Origin: Burkholderiales bacterium
GTDB lineage: Bacteria; Pseudomonadota; Gammaproteobacteria; Burkholderiales; SG8-39
NCBI GenBank assembly: GCA_046153355.1
Contig: JBJXEY010000096.1
Coordinates: 1-10,226 of the forward strand
Reading direction: 5' to 3'
DNA: 10,226 bases
A program made the translations under genes and the position numbers. The notes under the pieces were generated by a model that had not been told where the DNA came from, searched no databases, and saw only the letters and a list, made by a program, of their open reading frames with translations. Positions 3,903 to 8,733 of the stretch are shown piece after piece; position 1 is the first letter of the stretch, and each line of letters begins with the position of its first letter.

Positions 3903-3948
3903 CCGCACAAAACGCACAGCGCCAACCTGTGGCGCTGTGCGGGTCCTA
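3903..3948. terminator. Bidirectional intrinsic terminator between the convergent MBL and HNH genes
   Basis: Perfect 12-bp stem CGCACAGCGCCA / TGGCGCTGTGCG with a 5-nt loop, nested in a longer imperfect repeat ACCCGCAC...GTGCGGGT. A U-run follows on the minus strand (TTTTGTG) and a weaker T-rich tail on the plus strand. Confidence 0.7.
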
Positions 3949-4509
3949 CTTTCGCAGCCGGCTAGTTTTAGGCACGCGGTCCAGCAAAAAGGCCATTTGA
4001 TCCGCGAGGATATGGCGATTGCGCAGAATAAAGTGCTCGTGCCGGTTGGGCGTGTAAGGCACGAATAGCAGCGGCATCCGCGCCTGCTCTGGCGTTCTAT
4101 CCGCTTTGCGAGAATTACACGCACGACACGCCGCGACAATATTCGTCCACAGATGGCGCCCGCCTTTGGATACCGGCAAAACGTGATCGCACGACAAATC
4201 GCCATCGCTAAAACCAGCACCGCAGTACGCGCACAAATGGCAATCACGCGCGAACAGCAAATCGTTATTGACCGCGGGCGTACGCGCCAACAGGCGTGAA
4301 GCATGCCCAACGCCGCGAAGCGCCAGGATCGACTGCGTTTCCAGGCGTGAACGGCGTCCATCGCGCTGAAATCCGCCGCGGTATTCGCACACCCGCTCGC
4401 CCAAAGACCACGCAACCTGCCTCTTGGCGTGGTAGGTCATTGCCTCGTCCATGCTGGCCCAAGCTTGTGGCAGGCCGGCCTGATCGAGCGTGAGGATCAT
4501 GGTTTTCAT
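3946..4509 (-). CDS. HNH endonuclease (McrA-like HNH nuclease family)
   Basis: 187-aa ORF. The HNH core is recognisable: CHLCAYCG...DHVLPVSKGG...N..ACRACNSRK, i.e. the Cys4 zinc knuckle plus catalytic His/Asn. It is co-directional with, and 93 nt downstream of, the SPFH gene. Confidence 0.8.
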   Translation of the reverse strand: MKTMILTLDQAGLPQAWASMDEAMTYHAKRQVAWSLGERVCEYRGGFQRDGRRSRLETQSILALRGVGHASRLLARTPAVNNDLLFARDCHLCAYCGAGFSDGDLSCDHVLPVSKGGRHLWTNIVAACRACNSRKADRTPEQARMPLLFVPYTPNRHEHFILRNRHILADQMAFLLDRVPKTSRLRK

Positions 4510-4602: not shown

Positions 4603-5745
4603 TCAAGCTCGGATTTTCACCAAATCCTTGAGAATGCCATCCAACCCGCCATATACCGAGATCTTGTCGATCTTCTCGGTCACCCTTTCCAAGGTTTCCA
4701 GCTCCTTCAAGCGCAGCGCAACTGGGTTGTCTTCCATCACCTTTGCCGTGTTCAGCAAAGACCGCGTTGCTGCGGTCTCCTCGCGCCGGCGAATCACATT
4801 GGCCTGCGCCGCCTTTTCGGCCTCGACGACGCGATTCAAGATTGTTTTCATCTCTCCCGGCAGGATGATGTCTTTCACCCCGACGGATTCGATTTCCAAT
4901 CCGTAACCTTGCACGCGCCGCTTGATAGTGTCGCCAACCGCCTCGTTGGTAATGCTCTTGTTCTCGAGCAATTCATCGAGGCTGCGCGTACCCACTGCCG
5001 CGCGCAGGCCGAATTGCAGCTCCTTGTACAGAAACTCCATTGGCTTGGCCTGCTTCGTAAATGCCAGCATGGCATCGGTGATGCGATAACCCGCGGTCAG
5101 GTTCACCCGCAAGCTCACCTTGTCGCGCGTCAGGATTTCCTGGCCGGCAACCTCCAACACCTGCAAACGCAGATCGATGTTTTCCACCTTCACCTCGCGC
5201 AGATGGCGCCAGAAATAGTGCATTCCAGATTCGAGCAAGCCCGAAAACTTTCCATCCACGTAGAGCATCCCGACGCTGTGGGAAGGCACCATGGCGACGA
5301 AAACCCCTTCGCTGCCAAGAAACTTCAACGGGCCGCGCGAGACGAATGCCGTTACTTTGGGAACCAATTCGGGCGCAATCGTGCATTCGGTCCCGATGTC
5401 AACTTTCTCAAACGCCACATCGATATAGCCCCTCCAATAAAGGCGACGCGTATTAGGACGCAAAATCTCGACCAGCACTCCGCCCTCATATCGCAATGCG
5501 ATTTGTGCAGCGCCCACTTCGATGGTCACGAACTCGCGCGCCACCAGATCCGGCTCCGCCATACGCAGGTAGTCGACCAACTTGTGATCGAACTGGGTTT
5601 GCGCCAACGAAAACTTCTCGACAGTAAGGCGATGCAAGGGATCGAAATAGGTGTATTCGCCGGCGCCAAGAAAGTCTACAAAATCGCCTTTGCGAAGCAG
5701 CATGGCGCGCTCGTCTTTCTTTACAAACACTTTAGTCATCAACAT
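4603..5745 (-). CDS. SPFH/band-7 (stomatin/slipin-like) domain protein, predicted cytoplasmic (no N-terminal TM helix)
   Basis: The ORF-track 447-aa frame is trimmed to the ATG (complement of 5743-5745), which has AAGGAG 7 nt upstream. The start is MLMTKVFVKKDERAML. The C-terminal half has SPFH hallmarks (GLEIESVGVKDIILPGEMKTILNRVVEAEKAAQANVIRRREETAATRSL...NPVALRLKELETLE). No hydrophobic membrane anchor is present. Confidence 0.8.
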   Translation of the reverse strand: MLMTKVFVKKDERAMLLRKGDFVDFLGAGEYTYFDPLHRLTVEKFSLAQTQFDHKLVDYLRMAEPDLVAREFVTIEVGAAQIALRYEGGVLVEILRPNTRRLYWRGYIDVAFEKVDIGTECTIAPELVPKVTAFVSRGPLKFLGSEGVFVAMVPSHSVGMLYVDGKFSGLLESGMHYFWRHLREVKVENIDLRLQVLEVAGQEILTRDKVSLRVNLTAGYRITDAMLAFTKQAKPMEFLYKELQFGLRAAVGTRSLDELLENKSITNEAVGDTIKRRVQGYGLEIESVGVKDIILPGEMKTILNRVVEAEKAAQANVIRRREETAATRSLLNTAKVMEDNPVALRLKELETLERVTEKIDKISVYGGLDGILKDLVKIRA

Positions 5746-6006
5746 TGTTTTTCTCCTTCTCATAAAAATGGTTCCGGCTTCCCGGCCGTTCGAGGGACAA
5801 CCGTGTTGCAAGCAAGGGAGACAAGCCGCGCCGCCCGCGATCGACCAATCCAATCTCATATTCGATCGGATAGACGGCCACGTATGGCTGTTGCTTTCTC
5901 GCCAACCTGCGCCAACGGCGCACATTTCGAACGGCTGGCGCGGCAAACCACTTGCCGCCGAAGCCGAACCCGGGCACTACATAAAACAGGCCTTTCAAGG
6001 ACCTAG

Positions 6007-6080
6007 GTTTTCCAGCGGGATTTGAACCCGCGACCTATCGGTTATCAGCCGATTGCTCTACCCAACTGAGCCATGGAAAT
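6007..6080 (-). tRNA. tRNA-Ile(GAT)-like, no encoded CCA, discriminator C, A1.A72 mismatch
   Basis: Hand fold of minus strand: ATTTCCA TG GCTC AGTTGGGTA GAGC A ATCGG CTGATAA CCGAT AGGTC GCGGG TTCAAAT CCCGC TGGAAAA C. The anticodon loop CUGAUAA is canonical. Pos 1 (A) cannot pair with pos 72 (A). Confidence 0.65.
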
Positions 6081-6153
6081 GGAGCGGAAGGTAAGAATCG
6101 AACTTACGACCTCGGGCCATGCCGCCCGCGCTCAACCACTGAGCTACATCCGC
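6080..6153 (-). tRNA. tRNA-like gene with CAU anticodon in a 6-nt anticodon loop (non-canonical; possible pseudo-tRNA); CCA encoded, its terminal A shared with pos 1 of the downstream Ile gene
   Basis: Minus strand: GCGGATG TA GCTC AGTGGTT GAGC G CGGGC GGCATG GCCCG AGGTC GTAAG TTCGATT CTTAC CTTCCGC T CCA. It has a perfect 5-bp anticodon stem but only 6 loop nucleotides. There is a U.U mismatch at 6:67 and a shortened D-loop. Confidence 0.5.
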
Positions 6154-6303
6154 ACGTATCCATCGTTCCCGCATCGCGGTATGCGCCCATCCAATTTTCA
6201 GGACGAGCGCACCAGGGAGGTCTCAAGAGCCTCGCCCGCTGACAACGCGTTCGCGACGAATTCTTTTTCTGCCAACTGTGGCAGTGGATATGGCAATAAA
6301 AAT

Positions 6304-6382
6304 TGGCGCCGCCGGTAGGACTCGAACCCACAACTTCCGCGTTCGAAGCGCGGCACTCTGATGCCAATTGAGTTACGGCGGC
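6304..6382 (-). tRNA. tRNA-Arg(TCG), CCA encoded
   Basis: GCCGCCG TA ACTC AATTGGCATCA GAGT G CCGCG CTTCGAA CGCGG AAGTT GTGGG TTCGAGT CCTAC CGGCGGC G CCA. All stems pair, with one G.U in the T-stem. Confidence 0.8.
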
Positions 6383-6388
6383 ATAAAT

Positions 6389-6465
6389 TGGGGTGATCGA
6401 CCCGATTCGAACGGGCATCTACTTGGTTCACATCCAAGTGCTTTGCCGATTAAGCTACGATCAAC
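6389..6465 (-). tRNA. tRNA-His(GTG) with G-1 and C73, CCA encoded
   Basis: G(-1) TTGATCG TA GCTT AATCGGCA AAGC A CTTGG ATGTGAA CCAAG TAGAT GCCCG TTCGAAT CGGGT CGATCAC C CCA. G-1/C73 is the bacterial His identity. Pos 1:72 is U.C. Confidence 0.75.
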
Positions 6466-6471
6466 GCTGAC

Positions 6472-6549
6472 TGGTCAGTGCGGTGAGATTCGAACTCACG
6501 ACCTCCGCGTTCCAAGCGCGGCGCGCTAGCCTGGCTGCGCTACACACTG
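6472..6549 (-). tRNA. tRNA-Pro(TGG), CCA encoded
   Basis: CAGTGTG TA GCGC AGCCAGGCTA GCGC G CCGCG CTTGGAA CGCGG AGGTC GTGAG TTCGAAT CTCAC CGCACTG A CCA. Confidence 0.85.
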
Positions 6550-6557
6550 AATAAATT

Positions 6558-6633
6558 TGGCAGGGACGGCGCGATTCGAACGCGCAACCCCGAGCTTCAA
6601 AGGCTCGTGCTCTACCGATTGAGCTACATCCCG
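6558..6633 (-). tRNA. tRNA-Gln(TTG), CCA encoded, G73
   Basis: CGGGATG TA GCTC AATCGGTA GAGC A CGAGC CTTTGAA GCTCG GGGTT GCGCG TTCGAAT CGCGC CGTCCCT G CCA. Pos 1:72 is C.U, compatible with the known weak 1:72 pair of Gln tRNAs. Confidence 0.8.
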
Positions 6634-6641
6634 ATAAAACA

Positions 6642-6717
6642 TGGCGCCGCCGGCACGGCATCGAACCGGCCTCTCGGGGGCTTCAAACCCGCGCTAATCC
6701 TTCTCAGCTACAGCGGC
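6642..6717 (-). tRNA. tRNA-Phe(GAA)-like, irregular (U.C at 31:39, one extra bulged nucleotide in 3' T-stem strand), CCA encoded
   Basis: GCCGCTG TA GCTG AGAAGGAT TAGC G CGGGT TTGAAGC CCCCG AGAG GCCGG TTCGATG CCG(T)GC CGGCGGC G CCA. Confidence 0.55.
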
Positions 6718-6724
6718 TATGTTT

Positions 6725-6801
6725 TGGTGCTGTCGGTCACGCATCGAACGGACGACCTCCCGCTTACAAGGCGGGTGCTCTTCCCACTGAGCTACGACAG
6801 C
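6725..6801 (-). tRNA. tRNA-Thr(TGT), CCA encoded, with one extra bulged nucleotide in the 3' T-stem strand
   Basis: GCTGTCG TA GCTC AGTGGGAA GAGC A CCCGC CTTGTAA GCGGG AGGTC GTCCG TTCGATG CG(T)GAC CGACAGC A CCA. All other stems are perfect. Confidence 0.7.
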
Positions 6802-6809
6802 GTAATAAA

Positions 6810-6885
6810 TGGCATCCCCGGCAGGATTCAAACCTACGGCCTGCGGATTCGTAATCCGCCGCTCTATCCTCTGAGCTACGGGGAT
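6810..6885 (-). tRNA. tRNA-Arg(ACG), CCA encoded
   Basis: ATCCCCG TA GCTC AGAGGATA GAGC G GCGGA TTACGAA TCCGC AGGCC GTAGG TTTGAAT CCTGC CGGGGAT G CCA. The T-loop has U56 with A at the D-loop position expected to pair with it (apparent A19-U56 covariation). Confidence 0.8.
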
Positions 6886-6887
6886 TT

Positions 6888-6963
6888 TGGCGAACCGTGC
6901 GGGGCTCGAACCCGCTACCACCGGCTTGAAGGGCCGGGCGCGCGGCGCTTTGCATTGCGGTTC
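6888..6963 (-). tRNA. tRNA-Glu(TTC)-like, non-canonical (C33, A8, degenerate D-arm lacking G18G19, C.A at 7:66), CCA encoded
   Basis: GAACCGC AA TGC AAAGCGCCGC GCG C CCGGC CCTTCAA GCCGG TGGTA GCGGG TTCGAGC CCCGC ACGGTTC G CCA. The T-arm and anticodon stem are perfect. It starts 2 nt after the Arg(ACG) gene. Confidence 0.5.
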
Positions 6964-6986
6964 CTAAAATTGATATTTCTGCCAGC

Positions 6987-7048
6987 CCACCCGGCGAGGT
7001 ACAAAGGGAATCGTGTGTGAGGTCACGATTCGCCCGCCTCGCCGGGTG
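6987..7048. other. 62-nt compound hairpin (12-bp outer stem, 8-bp inner stem) in the spacer between the Glu-like and Leu-like tRNA genes
   Basis: Outer stem CACCCGGCGAGG (6987-6998) / CCTCGCCGGGTG (7037-7048). Inner stem GAATCGTG (7008-7015) / CACGATTC (7024-7031) with an 8-nt loop. No U-tract follows on either strand. Confidence 0.5.
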
Positions 7049-7135
7049 ACGACAGAACTTATTGCCACATCCAAATTTTCAAAGAGCAATCCGCCTTGTT
7101 CCGGTCTCTATGCCGGCGCGGTTACAGCAAATTCC

Positions 7136-7213
7136 TGGTGCCCCACCCGAGATTCGAACTCGGAGAATCCGGTTTCTAAGACCGGCGCGTATGCCAGATT
7201 CCGCCAGCGGGAC
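7136..7213 (-). tRNA. tRNA-Leu(TAG)-like with short (5-nt) variable loop, i.e. class-I architecture; A73; CCA encoded
   Basis: GTCCCGC TG GCG G AATCTGGCATA CGC G CCGGT CTTAGAA ACCGG ATTCT CCGAG TTCGAAT CTCGG GTGGGGC A CCA. The D-arm is Leu-type (GCG/CGC 3-bp stem, long D-loop). The acceptor pairs with two G.U. There is no long variable arm. Confidence 0.6.
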
Positions 7214-7235
7214 ATTGCTAAAAATCGAACGGACA

Positions 7236-7275
7236 ACAAAAAGCCCGGGGACCTTGCGGATCAACCCGGGCTTTG
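7236..7275 (-). terminator. Intrinsic terminator (minus-strand orientation) 22 nt upstream of the first tRNA of the array
   Basis: Minus strand reads AAGCCCGGG-TTGATCCGCAAGGTC-CCCGGGCTT followed by TTTTGTTG. The plus strand has the same stem but only a weak T-rich tail. Confidence 0.6.
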
Positions 7276-7634
7276 CTGTTCGTTCTATTGAACGCTTACA
7301 TCAAAAACTTCTCCCGAATTGTTCCTGTCCGCTTCGGCTCATGACCGCCATTTAGCGAAAAGCCGGCGGTATAGGAGTCGCGGTCATTTACCTGCGCCAG
7401 TCGCGTGGTCGCGATTGACACCGGAACGACGATGGACCAAGCGAAACACCGAGCGTCTGGCGACATTGATCCCACGGCGCTACGCCGCTCTATCGATCTC
7501 TGGAATGTGGCTGTGTTCGGTTGCATGGCTTTGGCTTACTTCGATTCCTGGTTAAACGGGGTCGCATCAGGTCTGGATACGATGACAACGCAGCAGAGTC
7601 TAAACAGCGTTTTACTGCTTGTCAATCATTTTAT

Positions 7635-7669
7635 GCAAGTATATTTCATATTCTGTAAGGTTTGCTATA
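7635..7669 (+). promoter_or_regulatory. Sigma70-type promoter with extended -10 (TGcTATAAT) for the XRE regulator gene
   Basis: TATAAT at 7664-7669 is preceded by TGC (TGn), with a weak -35 (ATTTCA) 17 nt upstream. It lies in an AT-rich stretch ~30 nt upstream of the RBS GAGGG and the ATG at 7701. Confidence 0.5.
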
Positions 7670-7700
7670 ATTCAGGCTTCGATTTGTGAGGGTCGAATCC

Positions 7701-7943
7701 ATGACATCCAGTACTGCAAAGCCGCGCCGGCTCAAATGGCGCACCCGCGTAGTAATGGCCGAACGCGGCGTTCGTTCCGTATCAGCGCTTCGCCGCAAAC
7801 TTGAGGATCTGGGCATTTCCATCTCCGATGCCCAACTGGGCCGCATCATTGACGGCAGATCCAGTCATTTCAATTCCATTGTCGTCGGCGGACTGTTGAC
7901 GGCCTTGAACTGCGGTTTGACTGACCTATTCGCTGTTGCCTAG
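7701..7943 (+). CDS. XRE-family (Cro/CI-type) helix-turn-helix transcriptional regulator, 80 aa
   Basis: The ORF-track 7686..7943 frame is trimmed to ATG 7701 (GAGGG 8 nt upstream). The HTH_XRE pattern is RVVMAERGVRSVSALRRKLEDLGISISDAQLGRIIDGRSSHFNSIVVGGLLTAL. Confidence 0.7.
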   Translation: MTSSTAKPRRLKWRTRVVMAERGVRSVSALRRKLEDLGISISDAQLGRIIDGRSSHFNSIVVGGLLTALNCGLTDLFAVA

Positions 7944-7954
7944 TCCAAAAAGCA

Positions 7955-7988
7955 AAAAACCCGGAAAGCCTTAGCTGTCCGGGTTTTG
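7955..7988 (+). terminator. Rho-independent terminator of the XRE regulator gene
   Basis: AAAAACCCGG-aaagccttagctgt-CCGGGTTTTG, a GC stem followed by a T-run, 12 nt after the TAG stop. Confidence 0.7.
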
Positions 7989-8077
7989 AGTGAACGCTCT
8001 GCATTCGCCGCTATTGATGGTCCTCCGGACGAAGGATTGACTGTTTTTGGTTGCCATGCTGACGAGAATTTCTCGCC

Positions 8078-8115
8078 GGGCATAGCTCAGCGATTTGCCA
8101 TTCGAACGAGCGCAT
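8078..8115 (+). other. Possible decayed tRNA fragment (GGGCATAGCTCAGCG ... TTCGAACGAGCGC)
   Basis: Contains the tRNA-diagnostic U8-A14 string TAGCTCAG and a T-loop-like TTCGAAC ~15 nt later. It cannot be folded into a complete cloverleaf. Confidence 0.25.
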
Positions 8116-8385
8116 TCCTCGCAAGCTTCGCAAGATAGGTAGGTTGCCTGGCTGAATCATCATCGGTGCAAAAGGGTGGCTGTGTTTGCCGCCGCGTTCA
8201 TGTAACAAAAGGGCGTGAAGTGTCCCCCAACCTTCCGCTAGCGTCAATAGAAAAGGCGATTTTGGCCATCTATATCATCTGTTGATACAATGCGGGATGC
8301 ATGAAGACCCCGGAATCGAATCCCTGCTTGACCTCCATGGAGAGATCATTGATCAGGATCAAGGTTATTTGGTCAAAAGAGAAAA

Positions 8386-8733
8386 ATGAAAGCTACCGTG
8401 ATTGGCATCATGTCGCAAAGCAAAATTCGCGAGAGAATATTGTCGATCGCCCGTGGAGAGTACAAACCCAAACCTGATGAGCCGAAAATCTGGTTTACCT
8501 CAATGCGATCACTTGCCGAAGTGTTGAGCGACGAGAATCGCGCGCTTCTAAAGATTATCGAAGATACCAAGCCCCAGTCCATATCCTCCTTGGCGCAGGC
8601 AACCGGCCGCAAGCCGGGCAACCTTTCACGTACCCTCAATACAATGTCGAATTACGGCATTGTCGAGATGAAACGCGAGCGCAATCAGGTGCGCCCGATA
8701 GCGAAGGCCACTGAGTTTCGAATTGTTGCGTAG
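8386..8733 (+). CDS. Small winged-HTH (ArsR/MarR-like) putative DNA-binding protein / predicted transcriptional regulator, 115 aa
   Basis: The ORF resembles the COG4190-like small regulator architecture: N-terminal region ...SIARGEYKPKPDEPKIWFTSMRSLAEVLSDENRALLKII, then a wHTH (PQSISSLAQATGRKPGNLSRTLNTMSNYGIVEMKRE) and a C-terminal strand. The family assignment is from memory and was not searched. Confidence 0.55.
   Translation: MKATVIGIMSQSKIRERILSIARGEYKPKPDEPKIWFTSMRSLAEVLSDENRALLKIIEDTKPQSISSLAQATGRKPGNLSRTLNTMSNYGIVEMKRERNQVRPIAKATEFRIVA

What the first reader, a model, noticed from the sequence alone, without database searches (positions are those of the whole stretch)
6007..7213. Dense minus-strand array of 11 tRNA/tRNA-like genes, several of them non-canonical, between a nuclease module and HTH regulators
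Eleven tRNA-type genes lie on one strand within 1.2 kb: Leu(TAG)-like, Glu(TTC)-like, Arg(ACG), Thr(TGT), Phe(GAA)-like, Gln(TTG), Pro(TGG), His(GTG), Arg(TCG), a CAU tRNA-like gene and Ile(GAT). Spacers are only 2-8 nt, one pair overlaps by 1 nt, and two longer structured gaps interrupt the run. Ten of the 11 encode CCA. At least five members deviate from the universal cloverleaf (see the separate findings). This mixture of intact and irregular genes at extreme packing resembles the tRNA gene arrays of phages and integrative elements more than a housekeeping tRNA operon. Such arrays are thought to supplement host tRNAs or replace ones cleaved by anticodon nucleases. The flanking context fits an accessory origin: an HNH nuclease and SPFH gene pair, small HTH regulators and a drop in GC between 7290 and 8385.
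Basis: partly seen in the sequence, partly recalled or inferred. Interest (0 to 1): 0.8.

Follow-up and report, generated by a model that had tools for sequence, protein, structure and literature searches.

The report
Spare tRNA array plus tRNA mimics
The 1.2-kb run is real but holds two things: a nine-gene accessory tRNA array of a known horizontally spread type, and two tRNA look-alikes that belong to the membrane-protein (SPFH) gene downstream, a module usually linked to the RNA-repair ligase RtcB.

Summary
ARAGORN finds 9 tRNA genes at default settings and Rfam finds 10. Spacers, the CCA count and the non-canonical features are confirmed.

The run is not one homogeneous array. Bases 7213-6304 are a nine-gene accessory array of the L-array type. 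Its HNH neighbour belongs to the family found beside the Anabaena trn array, mycobacterial plasmid arrays and some phage tRNA regions. It also has a tRNA-Leu without the long variable arm, as the Anabaena array does.

Bases 6153-6006 ('CAU-like' and 'Ile-GAT') are tandem Band-7-associated tRNA-like RNAs. The second one lies 241-450 nt upstream of the SPFH gene in 74 of 80 related loci, with or without an array. Its cloverleaf covaries strongly, yet it shows 26 different 'anticodons' and has no CCA. The first has its anticodon loop replaced by a 4-6-nt loop.

RtcB lies within 6 kb in 60 of 80 relatives. In Pseudomonas the module sits in an rtcR-rtcB-rtcA operon. The window itself has no RtcB.

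Most likely this is an island that responds to tRNA damage or translation stress. This is inferred from context and was not tested. It combines two known kinds in a new variant.

The parts
7686..7943 (+). Small Cro/C1-type HTH gene (HTH_26), transcribed divergently from the array. Candidate regulator.
   Evidence: Pfam PF13443, E 3e-4, just below the cut-off. Homologues at 50-89% identity lie in the same divergent position in 8 related array loci.
7597..7660 (-). Sigma-70-like promoter (TTGACA, 17 nt, TAGACT at 7625-7597) with conserved TTGCAT-type operator repeats just upstream.
   Evidence: Promoter scan. Alignment with four relatives shows the invariant block TTGCATnATATGCAA ... TTGCATAAAATGATTGACA. 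The upstream palindrome is degenerate in the window itself.
7296..7526 (-). Small leader ORF of 76 codons, ending ...IREKFLM-stop.
   Evidence: One search shows open frames of 69-94 codons ending at the same ATG-stop in the window and L007-L009. Counted from the first Met these are 57-76 aa. L006 keeps the frame by eye, ending ATG-TGA. Only the C-terminus is conserved. No Pfam match.
7227..7285 (-). Strong terminator hairpin followed by a T-run, ending about 14 nt before the first tRNA.
   Evidence: Invariant in 5 loci. Fold of the surrounding 135 nt: -51.3 kcal/mol, z = -4.1. Terminator scan.
7136..7213 (-). tRNA-Leu(UAG) with A73 and a Leu-type D arm, but a 5-nt variable loop in place of the long arm.
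   Evidence: ARAGORN and Rfam at 51.9 bits. The anticodon is kept, with compensatory stem changes, in L006, L007, L009 and L016. The Anabaena array has the same short-arm Leu type.
6964..7135 (-). Conserved structured spacer: a small hairpin plus a roughly 85-nt long hairpin.
   Evidence: Conserved in L006, L007 and L009; only its first part aligns in L016. 35 predicted pairs, 6 with compensatory changes. No Rfam family.
6888..6963 (-). Glu(UUC)-like tRNA with an irregular D arm, C33 and CCA.
   Evidence: Found only at the ARAGORN 90% threshold and missed by Rfam. L007 and L009 carry a regular cloverleaf version with covarying stems.
6810..6885 (-). tRNA-Arg(ACG).
   Evidence: ARAGORN; Rfam 64.1 bits.
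6725..6801 (-). tRNA-Thr(UGU) with a bulged U in the T stem.
   Evidence: ARAGORN; Rfam 55 bits. The same bulge is present in L006.
6642..6717 (-). Phe(GAA)-like tRNA with a bulged T stem, U31/C39 mismatch and G37.
   Evidence: Rfam 33.2 bits, threshold 29. ARAGORN at 90% only. The bulge is kept in L006 as C instead of U.
6558..6633 (-). tRNA-Gln(UUG) with a C1/U72 mismatch.
   Evidence: ARAGORN; Rfam 64.9 bits. The mismatch is kept in L006.
6472..6549 (-). tRNA-Pro(UGG).
   Evidence: ARAGORN; Rfam 65.4 bits.
6389..6465 (-). tRNA-His(GUG) with an encoded G-1 and C73.
   Evidence: ARAGORN; Rfam 53.3 bits. G-1 read from the sequence.
6304..6382 (-). tRNA-Arg(UCG).
   Evidence: ARAGORN; Rfam 63.7 bits.
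6154..6303 (-). Conserved structured 5' leader of the tRNA-like pair.
   Evidence: Aligned in 22 loci, including ones with no array. 26 predicted pairs, 16 with compensatory changes. In Pseudomonas it begins just downstream of a sigma-54-like TGGCAC-N5-TCGC site.
   Evidence: Rfam 54.4 bits; ARAGORN cannot assign it. In 22 of 23 aligned homologues the loop is not 7 nt. Thirteen are tetraloops, 5 of them GNRA and 2 UNCG.
   Evidence: Covariance model R1 gives 87.7 bits. Found 241-450 nt before the SPFH start in 74 of 80 loci, with 26 different 'anticodons'. 94.9% of cells paired, 238 double-change cells, 0 of 500 shuffles as high.
5743..6005 (-). Structured leader between the tRNA-like pair and the SPFH start. 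It begins with a small terminator-like hairpin at 6005-5987.
   Evidence: 57 predicted pairs, 30 with compensatory changes, in 14 loci. Terminator-like site.
4603..5742 (-). SPFH/Band-7 (slipin) gene, 379 aa.
   Evidence: Pfam PF01145, E 7e-28. Identical to P0001, 'slipin family protein', MAG Burkholderiales bacterium. The scan confirmed 538 related places in one-genome-per-species contigs.
3946..4509 (-). HNH endonuclease, 187 aa.
   Evidence: Pfam HNH_5, E 9e-17. Same family as the HNH beside the Anabaena trn array and those on Burkholderiales megaplasmids.

Best explanation
The region is a composite island that most likely responds to tRNA damage or translation stress.

(1) Bases 7213-6304 are a nine-gene accessory tRNA operon of the horizontally spread long-array ('L-array') type. 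It probably supplies spare, chargeable tRNAs when the normal pool is cleaved or translation is impaired.

(2) Bases 6303-5743 encode a structured RNA leader holding two fused tRNA mimics, the Band-7-associated tRNAs. These belong to the SPFH gene downstream and do not decode. One has its anticodon loop replaced by a short loop. The other has an anticodon loop that is free to vary. I infer that they act as tRNA-shaped cofactors, decoys or sensors for the SPFH protein and, in most relatives, the RtcB ligase.

(3) The HNH endonuclease is the array-linked homing-type nuclease seen beside such arrays in other phyla. It probably helps the array persist or spread.

Expression most likely starts at the sigma-70-like promoter at 7625-7597, controlled by the divergent HTH protein. 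Transcription must then read through a leader ORF and a strong terminator before reaching the first tRNA.

Shown here: the anatomy, the conservation, the covariation and the gene linkage. Inferred: expression, charging, the regulatory logic and the physiological role.
For: tRNA calls.

b7a (Band-7-associated tRNA) module:
- tRNA-like RNA 2 lies upstream of SPFH in 74 of 80 loci, whether or not an array is present.
- Its cloverleaf covaries: 94.9% paired, 238 double-change cells, 0 of 500 shuffles.
- It shows 26 different 'anticodons', no CCA, and mostly unpaired 1:72 and 2:71 positions.
- tRNA-like RNA 1 has a 4-6-nt loop in 22 of 23 homologues.
- In ten near-identical Pseudomonas loci, variation in this leader RNA is highest in the anticodon arm of tRNA-like RNA 1, with a smaller peak at the loop of RNA 2.

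Linkage:
- RtcB in 60 of 80 loci, HNH in 34, RtcR in 21.
- Pseudomonas nitroreducens has rtcR, then a sigma-54-like site, the tRNA-like pair, SPFH, rtcB and rtcA.
- Arrays go with HNH (odds ratio 6.5, p = 1.8e-4) and against RtcR (odds ratio 0.16, p = 0.004).

Literature:
- The Band-7-associated tRNA was predicted by Burroughs and Aravind 2016, as quoted in bioRxiv 10.1101/312249.
- The P. aeruginosa SPFH gene PaFlo8 is embedded in the rtc locus (PMC13086221).
- Cyanobacterial L-arrays keep an HNH neighbour, are co-regulated with rtcB and are induced by translation stress. In vivo, 23 of 26 of their tRNAs are charged (PMC8421152).

Shared ancestry with L-arrays:
- The HNH domain is 48% identical to the HNH directly upstream of the Anabaena trn array.
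- Both arrays carry a short-variable-arm tRNA-Leu.

Functional conservation of the odd members.

Control region.
Against: - The window, a whole 10.2-kb contig, has no RtcB, RtcA or RtcR. The repair link rests on relatives.
- Nothing here shows that any of these RNAs is expressed, processed or charged.
- The rest of the MAG is not available, so redundancy with a housekeeping tRNA set is untested.
- The variable anticodon loops could reflect absence of constraint and not selection.
- The terminator is bidirectional in form, so the read-through model is weak.
- In the nearest relatives the 'Ile' loop stays Ile- or Met-like (GAU, UAU, CAU). A residual decoding role in this clade cannot be excluded.
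- One flank (MR_MLE, 84% identical) is syntenic with the closest relative. This copy may therefore have been inherited vertically for some time.
Confidence: 0.65

Rival explanations
1. It is an ordinary housekeeping tRNA operon of this bacterium, and all eleven genes are normal decoders.
For: Ten of 11 genes encode CCA, and seven score 52-65 bits against Rfam tRNA. Array GC (0.56-0.60) matches the flanks. The block sits beside the same MR_MLE gene as in the nearest relative.
Against: Array content differs between close relatives. Of 58 related loci, 23 have no array. The last two genes have homologues with 26 different 'anticodons' or no anticodon loop. HNH homologues sit beside arrays on plasmids and in a phage tRNA region. 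Several members are non-canonical.
Confidence: 0.05
2. It is a remnant of a phage or integrative-element tRNA cluster that only supplements codon usage, with no link to RNA repair. The SPFH and HNH genes are unrelated neighbours.
For: Full-length HNH homologues occur in two jumbo phages, and an HNH-domain homologue lies within a cyanophage tRNA region. One relative (L005) is surrounded by IS66, an integrase and toxin-antitoxin genes.
Against: There are no phage or integration genes in the window. Phage and plasmid collections hold no near match to the array. The order tRNA-like pair, then SPFH, is fixed in 74 of 80 loci, and RtcB is linked in 60 of 80.
Confidence: 0.12
3. The irregular members (Glu-like, Phe-like, Thr, the 6-nt-loop gene, Ile-like) are decaying pseudogenes in a silent array with no function.
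For: Two of them fail default tRNA detection. In Anabaena, 3 of 26 array genes are pseudogenes and the array is silent under standard conditions (PMC8421152).
Against: The same odd features recur in relatives, with compensatory substitutions. Examples are the T-stem bulge (U in the window, C in L006), the covarying stems of the Glu-like gene, and the short-arm Leu kept across two phyla. The tRNA-like pair covaries strongly.
Confidence: 0.1
4. The array tRNAs recode or mistranslate. For example, the short-arm Leu-anticodon tRNA or the odd Phe-like tRNA may be charged with a non-cognate amino acid under stress.
For: The identity-relevant architecture is unusual. Anabaena operonic tRNA-Phe and tRNA-Ile migrate aberrantly on acid gels (PMC8421152).
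Against: The short-arm Leu keeps A73 and a Leu-type D arm. From my own knowledge, these are the main bacterial LeuRS determinants. No mistranslation was found in Anabaena.
Confidence: 0.08

Closest known systems
Long horizontally transferred tRNA gene arrays (L-arrays), e.g. the Anabaena sp. PCC 7120 trn operon (Santamaria-Gomez et al. 2021, PMC8421152)
   Same: Tightly packed, same-strand, non-periodic tRNA genes. An HNH endonuclease of the same family is a conserved neighbour. RtcB is linked in relatives. A short-variable-arm tRNA-Leu is present. Some members are irregular. Distribution is patchy and includes plasmids.
   Different: Only nine true array genes, against 26 in Anabaena and up to 43 elsewhere. 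The array is fused head-to-tail with an SPFH/tRNA-mimic module. The candidate regulator is an HTH_26 protein, not the RHH repressor TrcR (PMC10272220). A leader ORF and terminator precede the array. No expression data exist.
[quoted passage not shown]
   Same: A tRNA-like gene directly upstream of a Band-7/SPFH gene. RtcB is adjacent in most homologous loci. RtcR and a sigma-54-like site are present in Pseudomonas.
   Different: This copy has no RtcB, RtcA or RtcR. It carries an HNH gene and an upstream tRNA array instead. Here the mimic is a fused tandem pair with conserved structured 5' and 3' leaders. I could not check whether the original description covers these features.
Bacterial Y RNA YrlA with Rsr (Ro60) in the rsr-yrlBA-rtcBA operon
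   Same: A tRNA-shaped non-coding RNA encoded next to a putative RNA-binding partner, in the same operon position before rtcB. It has been proposed as a cofactor or as a competitive inhibitor of an anticodon nuclease (PMC7790460).
   Different: No Ro60 gene. The Rfam YrlA model scores only 23 bits against a threshold of 69. These mimics keep a full four-arm cloverleaf, which YrlA does not (my own knowledge).
Phage tRNA clusters with embedded homing endonucleases (T4 SegB; Synechococcus phage S-CBWM1)
   Same: An HNH or homing endonuclease embedded in a dense tRNA region, with pseudo-tRNAs present (PMC8421152).
   Different: No phage genes in the window. No close DNA match in the phage collection.

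Membership tests
L-array (long, horizontally transferred tRNA gene array) | Many tRNA genes in one orientation, close enough to be co-transcribed, with no periodic pattern | tested here: met
   Nine array genes on one strand with 2-8-nt spacers, interrupted by one 172-nt spacer after the first gene, and no repeated order. This is shorter than the classic 20-43-gene arrays. Relatives carry up to 18 upstream tRNA genes.
L-array (long, horizontally transferred tRNA gene array) | Patchy distribution and signs of horizontal transfer | tested here: met
   The array is present in 27 and absent in 23 of 58 loci that share the SPFH gene. Content varies between close relatives. Related HNH-plus-array loci lie on a conjugative megaplasmid. 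L005 lies among IS and toxin-antitoxin genes.
L-array (long, horizontally transferred tRNA gene array) | Conserved neighbouring HNH homing endonuclease of the all8564 type | tested here: met
   The window HNH is 48% identical over residues 76-154 to the pCC7120delta HNH that lies directly upstream of the trn array.
L-array (long, horizontally transferred tRNA gene array) | Supernumerary genes that duplicate the housekeeping tRNA set | not testable with these tools
   The window is a whole 10.2-kb MAG contig. The other contigs could not be retrieved.
L-array (long, horizontally transferred tRNA gene array) | Silent under standard conditions, induced by translation stress, with tRNAs charged in vivo | not testable with these tools
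   Needs RNA and acid-gel experiments.
Band-7-associated tRNA / Band-7 / RtcB repair system | A tRNA-like gene immediately upstream of a Band-7/SPFH gene | tested here: met
   The pair lies at 6153-6004 and SPFH starts at 5742. The same arrangement is found in 74 of 80 loci.
Band-7-associated tRNA / Band-7 / RtcB repair system | The RNA folds as a tRNA-like cloverleaf | tested here: met
   Covariation on 61 sequences: 94.9% paired, 14 of 21 pairs with double changes, 0 of 500 shuffles as high. The alignment was fitted to the model, so it leans toward that structure.
Band-7-associated tRNA / Band-7 / RtcB repair system | Adjacent RtcB ligase gene | tested here: not met
   No RtcB in the window by tblastn. 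It is present within 6 kb in 60 of 80 relatives. The window is filed as a member of the RNA-plus-SPFH module, not of a complete RtcB operon.
Band-7-associated tRNA / Band-7 / RtcB repair system | RtcR / sigma-54 control | tested here: not met
   No RtcR in the window. Its promoter is sigma-70-like, with an HTH_26 neighbour. RtcR matched in 21 of 80 relatives (at least two weakly, 36% identity); 18 of the 21 lack an array.
Canonical elongator tRNA (applied to 6153-6080 and 6080-6006) | A 7-nt anticodon loop whose anticodon is conserved among orthologues, a paired 7-bp acceptor stem, and a CCA end or a processable 3' end | tested here: not met
   RNA 1 has a 6-nt loop here and a loop of another length than 7 nt in 22 of 23 homologues. 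RNA 2 shows 26 'anticodons' in 67 loci, mostly unpaired 1:72 and 2:71 positions, and no CCA.
Y RNA (YrlA, RF02553) | Match to the Rfam model at gathering score | tested here: not met
   Best hit 23.2 bits against 69, and it overlaps ordinary tRNA genes.
allo-tRNA (8/4 or 9/3 acceptor/T-stem tRNAs, Mukai et al. 2017; recalled from memory) | An 8- or 9-bp acceptor stem with a 4- or 3-bp T stem | tested here: not met
   ARAGORN draws Thr and Phe-like with an eighth position, but that position is a U/C mismatch. A 7/5 fold with one bulged base in the T stem fits better.

The most novel reading that the evidence does not exclude
The two fused tRNA mimics may be decoys or sensors for anticodon nucleases. 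One is made uncleavable by replacing its anticodon loop with a tetraloop. The other carries a fast-changing anticodon arm that tracks whichever tRNA the local toxins attack. Together with the spare-tRNA array, the SPFH protein and (elsewhere) RtcB, they would form a dedicated immunity island against tRNA-cleaving toxins from phages or competitors. The conserved 5' and 3' structured leaders would be part of one large regulatory RNA.
Probability: 0.2. Interest if true: 0.8.

Novelty: new variant of a known kind. Interest (0 to 1): 0.5.

Why it matters
Both parent kinds are poorly understood. The role of L-arrays has been probed only in Anabaena. As of the 2018 preprint that cites it, the Band-7-associated tRNA had not been validated experimentally.

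This locus and its 80 relatives tie the two together physically. The recurring partners are spare tRNAs, tRNA mimics, an SPFH protein, an HNH nuclease and RtcB. This suggests one common response to tRNA damage across Burkholderiales, Pseudomonas, cyanobacteria and mycobacterial plasmids.

There is also an annotation point. Standard tools label the mimics as tRNA-Ile, Met, Thr, Asn, SeC or even suppressor tRNAs. That can mislead tRNA censuses and searches for genetic-code variants.

The covarying cloverleaf with a variable or deleted anticodon loop gives a clear, testable object for work on tRNA mimicry.

Tried and rejected
- Near and distant DNA searches of the whole array against plasmids and phages gave only generic single-tRNA similarity and no homologous array.
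- Exact-protein look-ups of the HNH and SPFH products, meant to recover the source contig and the rest of the MAG, found nothing on record.
- The PADLOC defence library had no match for SPFH. HNH gave only generic PtuB/Cas9-type HNH similarity.
- NCBIfam gave only weak HflK/C and IscB-HNH similarity, below the cut-offs.
- Rfam at a permissive E-value found no known family for the two long gaps or the leaders. Weak YrlA, ycf2 and other hits are chance matches over tRNA genes.
- I considered 8/4 allo-tRNA folds for Thr and Phe-like and rejected them, because the eighth position is a mismatch.
- I looked for a sigma-54 promoter in the window's gaps by eye and found no GG/GC match. A convincing site exists only in the Pseudomonas loci.
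- A leader-peptide attenuator was considered. The ORF and terminator are conserved, but I found no convincing antiterminator, and the terminator looks bidirectional. It stays a hypothesis.
- The E. coli slipin island (49% identical SPFH, present in 1629 of 5426 genomes) was checked as an annotated reference. It has no tRNA-like RNA and a different partner, a nucleotidyltransferase, so it is not informative.
- The Burroughs and Aravind 2016 paper itself could not be read. Its content is taken second-hand.

Full report
**1. The observation**

All features lie on the minus strand. ARAGORN at default settings reports nine tRNA genes between 7213 and 6006. Rfam's tRNA model reports ten hits above its gathering score. 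The extra hit is a low-scoring one at 6717-6645: 33.2 bits against a threshold of 29.

Both tools miss it at default settings. Spurious calls on the opposite strand begin only at 80%.

Reading the sequence confirms:
- spacers of 2-8 nt;
- one 1-nt overlap at 6080;
- two long gaps, at 7135-6964 and 6303-6154;
- CCA encoded in ten of eleven genes.

The claimed irregularities are real:
- Leu-UAG has a 5-nt variable loop.
- The Glu-like gene has a D arm without the GG motif, and C33.
- Thr and Phe-like each have one bulged base in the T stem.
- One gene has a 6-nt 'anticodon' loop.
- The Ile-like gene has an A1/A72 mismatch and no CCA.

**2. Where it comes from**

The SPFH protein encoded at 5742-4603 is identical to a protein annotated 'slipin family protein' from a MAG named Burkholderiales bacterium. 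That protein's longest contig is 10,226 bases, so the window is the whole contig.

The array has no close DNA match in the plasmid or phage collections. Only generic single-tRNA similarity was found.

**3. The last two 'tRNAs' belong to the SPFH gene**

I fetched loci encoding relatives of the SPFH protein. Five came from public assemblies. Eighty came from one-genome-per-species contigs, where the scan confirmed 538 related places in all.

tRNA scans show a pair of tRNA-like genes a few hundred bases upstream of the SPFH start in most loci. Some of these loci have no other tRNA gene nearby, for example L011-L014, L025, L031, L032 and the Pseudomonas loci.

I built a covariance model from 25 copies of the second element. 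It finds that element 241-450 nt before the SPFH start in 74 of 80 loci, plus the window. Scores run from about 58 to 93 bits, mostly above the ordinary tRNAs in the same loci.

On 61 sequences the cloverleaf is strongly supported:
- 94.9% of cells form pairs;
- 238 cells carry changes on both sides;
- none of 500 shuffles reaches any observed measure;
- slid controls fall to 34-44% paired.

That alignment was fitted to the model, so it leans towards its structure. Compensatory swaps are also plain in the raw sequences. Examples are TTCCA/TGGAA against TTGGA/TCCAA and TTCGA/TCGAA.

The element does not behave like a decoding tRNA:
- The 67 copies with a 7-nt loop carry 26 different 'anticodons'. 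Seven more have loops of 5, 6 or 8 nt.
- Few copies (at most about 1 in 10) have CCA after the stem; the window's copy has none.
- Pairs 1:72 and 2:71 are mostly unpaired.

ARAGORN consequently names it Ile, Met, Thr, Asn, Phe, Tyr, Cys, Leu, Arg, SeC or 'Stop' in different genomes.

It keeps regular acceptor, D and T arms, but its anticodon loop is not 7 nt in 22 of 23 aligned homologues. Thirteen have tetraloops, including five GNRA and two UNCG.

The two elements are fused. Spacing ranges from an overlap of about 3 nt to a gap of 2-3 nt.

Among ten Pseudomonas loci whose RtcB proteins are 95-100% identical, variable columns within this leader RNA are densest in the anticodon arm of the first element. 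A smaller peak lies at the loop of the second element. The rest of the leader RNA is almost invariant. This shows either relaxed constraint or diversifying selection. The data cannot separate the two.

**4. What the pair is**

A 2018 preprint on Y RNA structure quotes Burroughs and Aravind (2016). [quoted passage not shown] This RNA strongly resembles a true tRNA and had not been validated experimentally (bioRxiv 10.1101/312249). I could not read the 2016 paper itself.

The loci fetched here fit that description:
- RtcB lies within about 6 kb of the SPFH gene in 60 of 80 loci.
- In Pseudomonas nitroreducens the order is rtcR (divergent), a sigma-54-like TGGCAC-N5-TCGC site, the tRNA-like pair, SPFH, rtcB, rtcA.
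- A P. aeruginosa SPFH gene has been noted inside the rtc locus (PMC13086221).

The pair thus occupies the place that Y RNAs and Rsr hold in the Salmonella rsr-yrlBA-rtcBA operon. The Rfam YrlA model does not match it: 23 bits against a threshold of 69.

The window itself has no RtcB, RtcA or RtcR.

**5. The second long gap and the region after the pair are part of the same RNA module**

The 150 nt at 6303-6154 align with the sequence upstream of the pair in 22 loci, including loci without arrays. They fold into helices of which 16 of 26 pairs show compensatory changes.

The 263 nt at 6005-5743 begin with a small terminator-like hairpin. A large domain follows, in which 30 of 57 predicted pairs show compensatory changes in 14 loci.

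No Rfam family matches either stretch.

**6. The other nine genes are an L-array-type accessory array**

Upstream of the module, 33 of 80 loci carry three or more further same-strand tRNA genes, up to 18. Their content differs even between the closest relatives:
- L006 has Asn and Lys where the window has Arg-ACG.
- L007-L009 have RtcB embedded in the array.

Arrays go with the HNH gene: 22 of 33 against 11 of 47, odds ratio 6.5, p = 1.8e-4. They go against RtcR: 3 of 33 against 18 of 47, p = 0.004.

The HNH protein has several kinds of homologue:
- Full-length homologues at 43-48% identity lie on megaplasmids of Variovorax, Methylibium, Polaromonas and Burkholderia.
- On the conjugative Methylibium plasmid the gene follows 27 tRNA genes interspersed with AlkB and HD-domain genes.
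- The HNH domain is 48% identical to the HNH gene on Nostoc/Anabaena PCC 7120 plasmid delta. That gene lies directly upstream of the 24 tRNA genes ARAGORN finds in the trn operon.
- Further homologues are on Tolypothrix and Mycobacterium plasmids. Full-length copies occur in two jumbo phages, and one HNH-domain copy lies within the tRNA region of cyanophage S-CBWM1. One jumbo-phage copy has no tRNA genes nearby.

The Anabaena array is the studied example of the L-array class (PMC8421152):
- It is horizontally spread and supernumerary.
- It is silent in standard culture and induced by ribosome-targeting antibiotics.
- It is co-regulated with its HNH neighbour and with rtcB.
- 23 of its 26 tRNAs are charged in vivo.

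One more shared trait is a tRNA with a Leu anticodon, A73 and a Leu-type D arm, but a 5-nt variable loop. It opens the array in the window and in L006, L007, L009 and L016, where the anticodon is kept and the stems covary. Four such genes occur in the Anabaena array. From my own knowledge, bacterial LeuRS does not need the long arm, so these are probably chargeable. This was not tested.

**7. The irregular members are conserved, not decaying**

- The T-stem bulge of Thr and Phe-like is present in L006. In Phe-like the bulged base changes from U to C.
- The Glu-like gene has a regular cloverleaf counterpart in L007 and L009. Both stems changed in a compensatory way, and L009 shares C33.
- The C1/U72 mismatch of Gln is kept in L006, next to compensatory acceptor changes.

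In contrast to the SPFH-linked mimics, the array genes shared between the window and L006 keep their anticodons.

**8. Control region**

The HTH_26 gene at 7686-7943 is divergent from the array. It has homologues in the same position in eight array-bearing relatives.

An alignment of the intergenic region in five loci shows, in order:
- conserved TTGCAT repeats, palindromic in the relatives and degenerate in the window, abutting a TTGACA-17-TAGACT promoter at 7625-7597;
- a leader encoding a small ORF of 57-76 codons, of which only the C-terminus is conserved;
- an invariant GGGAGA-N8-ATG-stop;
- an invariant strong hairpin with a T-run, ending about 14 nt before the first tRNA.

There is no room for another promoter there. 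I therefore infer that the array is transcribed by read-through. I found no convincing antiterminator, and the hairpin has the form of a bidirectional terminator. The attenuator idea remains a hypothesis.

**9. Origin of this copy**

The block HTH, leader, array, mimics, SPFH and HNH is shared with the closest relative: SPFH 81%, HNH 83% and HTH 89% identical. In both it lies next to an orthologous MR_MLE gene, 84% identical. The other flank is not orthologous: the TctC genes are 32% identical.

This copy may thus have been inherited vertically for some time. Relatives show the same module among IS66, integrase and toxin-antitoxin genes (L005), and array-plus-HNH loci on plasmids. The GC dip at about 7400-8600 is mild and is weak evidence.

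**10. Verdict**

It is an accessory array of a mobile type, and a link to tRNA damage is plausible.

Two of the eleven genes are not array tRNAs, however. They are tRNA mimics of an SPFH/RtcB-type module, and the 'flanking' SPFH and HNH genes are integral parts.

The locus is a new variant that combines two known kinds. Its physiological role is inferred from context only.

Noticed in passing
window 7227-7660 (minus strand): The control region upstream of the array contains conserved TTGCAT operator repeats, a sigma-70-like promoter, a 76-codon leader ORF conserved only at its C-terminus, an invariant GGGAGA-N8-ATG-stop, and an invariant strong terminator about 14 nt before the first tRNA. It looks like a read-through or attenuation switch.
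   Followed up: partly
window 6154-6303 (minus strand): A 150-nt structured element lies upstream of the tRNA-like pair. It is conserved in 22 loci, including ones with no array, and 16 of 26 predicted pairs covary. No Rfam family matches. In Pseudomonas it starts right after a sigma-54-like site.
   Followed up: partly
window 5743-6005 (minus strand): The 263-nt leader between the mimics and the SPFH start folds into a large conserved domain. Thirty of 57 predicted pairs have compensatory changes in 14 loci. A small terminator-like hairpin precedes it. It may be a regulatory RNA or part of one large non-coding RNA.
   Followed up: partly
window 6964-7135 (minus strand): The spacer after Leu-UAG is conserved in L006, L007 and L009; only its first part aligns in L016. 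It contains a roughly 85-nt long hairpin. Its small hairpin loop (UGAAAAUUUGGAUG) resembles one in the 6154-6303 element. Function unknown.
   Followed up: partly
window 7136-7213; L086 4326-4862: tRNA genes with Leu anticodons, A73 and a Leu-type D arm, but only a 5-nt variable loop, occur both here and four times in the Anabaena trn array. This suggests a shared, ancient L-array trait.
   Followed up: partly
window 6472-6549 and 6304-6382: Pro(UGG) and Arg(UCG) have identical anticodon stems (CCGCG/CGCGG) and differ by one base in the loop. This hints at duplication followed by an anticodon switch.
   Followed up: no
window 8386-8733 (+): A 115-aa winged-helix protein of the HVO_A0114 family (Pfam E 1e-19) lies in the low-GC stretch. 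It was not found next to the array in any of the 80 relatives.
   Followed up: no
L087 (Methylibium petroleiphilum plasmid RPME01, 241163-255708): A conjugative megaplasmid carries 27 tRNA genes interspersed with AlkB, HD-domain and NADAR genes, followed by an HNH homologue. It is another array mixed with repair-type genes, but without SPFH.
   Followed up: partly
L090 (E. coli, between yjbD and lysC): A slipin gene 49% identical to the window's SPFH, paired with a nucleotidyltransferase gene, is present in 1629 of 5426 complete E. coli genomes. No tRNA-like RNA is detectable upstream.
   Followed up: yes
L043 and L046 (Rhizobacter sp. UKL202a chromosome): The same chromosome holds two copies of the module (tRNA-like RNA plus SPFH) at distant positions. 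One has RtcR upstream.
   Followed up: no
L015 3608-3679; L033 5652-5723: In these loci ARAGORN labels the SPFH-linked mimic as tRNA-SeC(TCA) or as a suppressor tRNA(TTA). Such calls could be mistaken for recoding tRNAs in genome surveys.
   Followed up: partly
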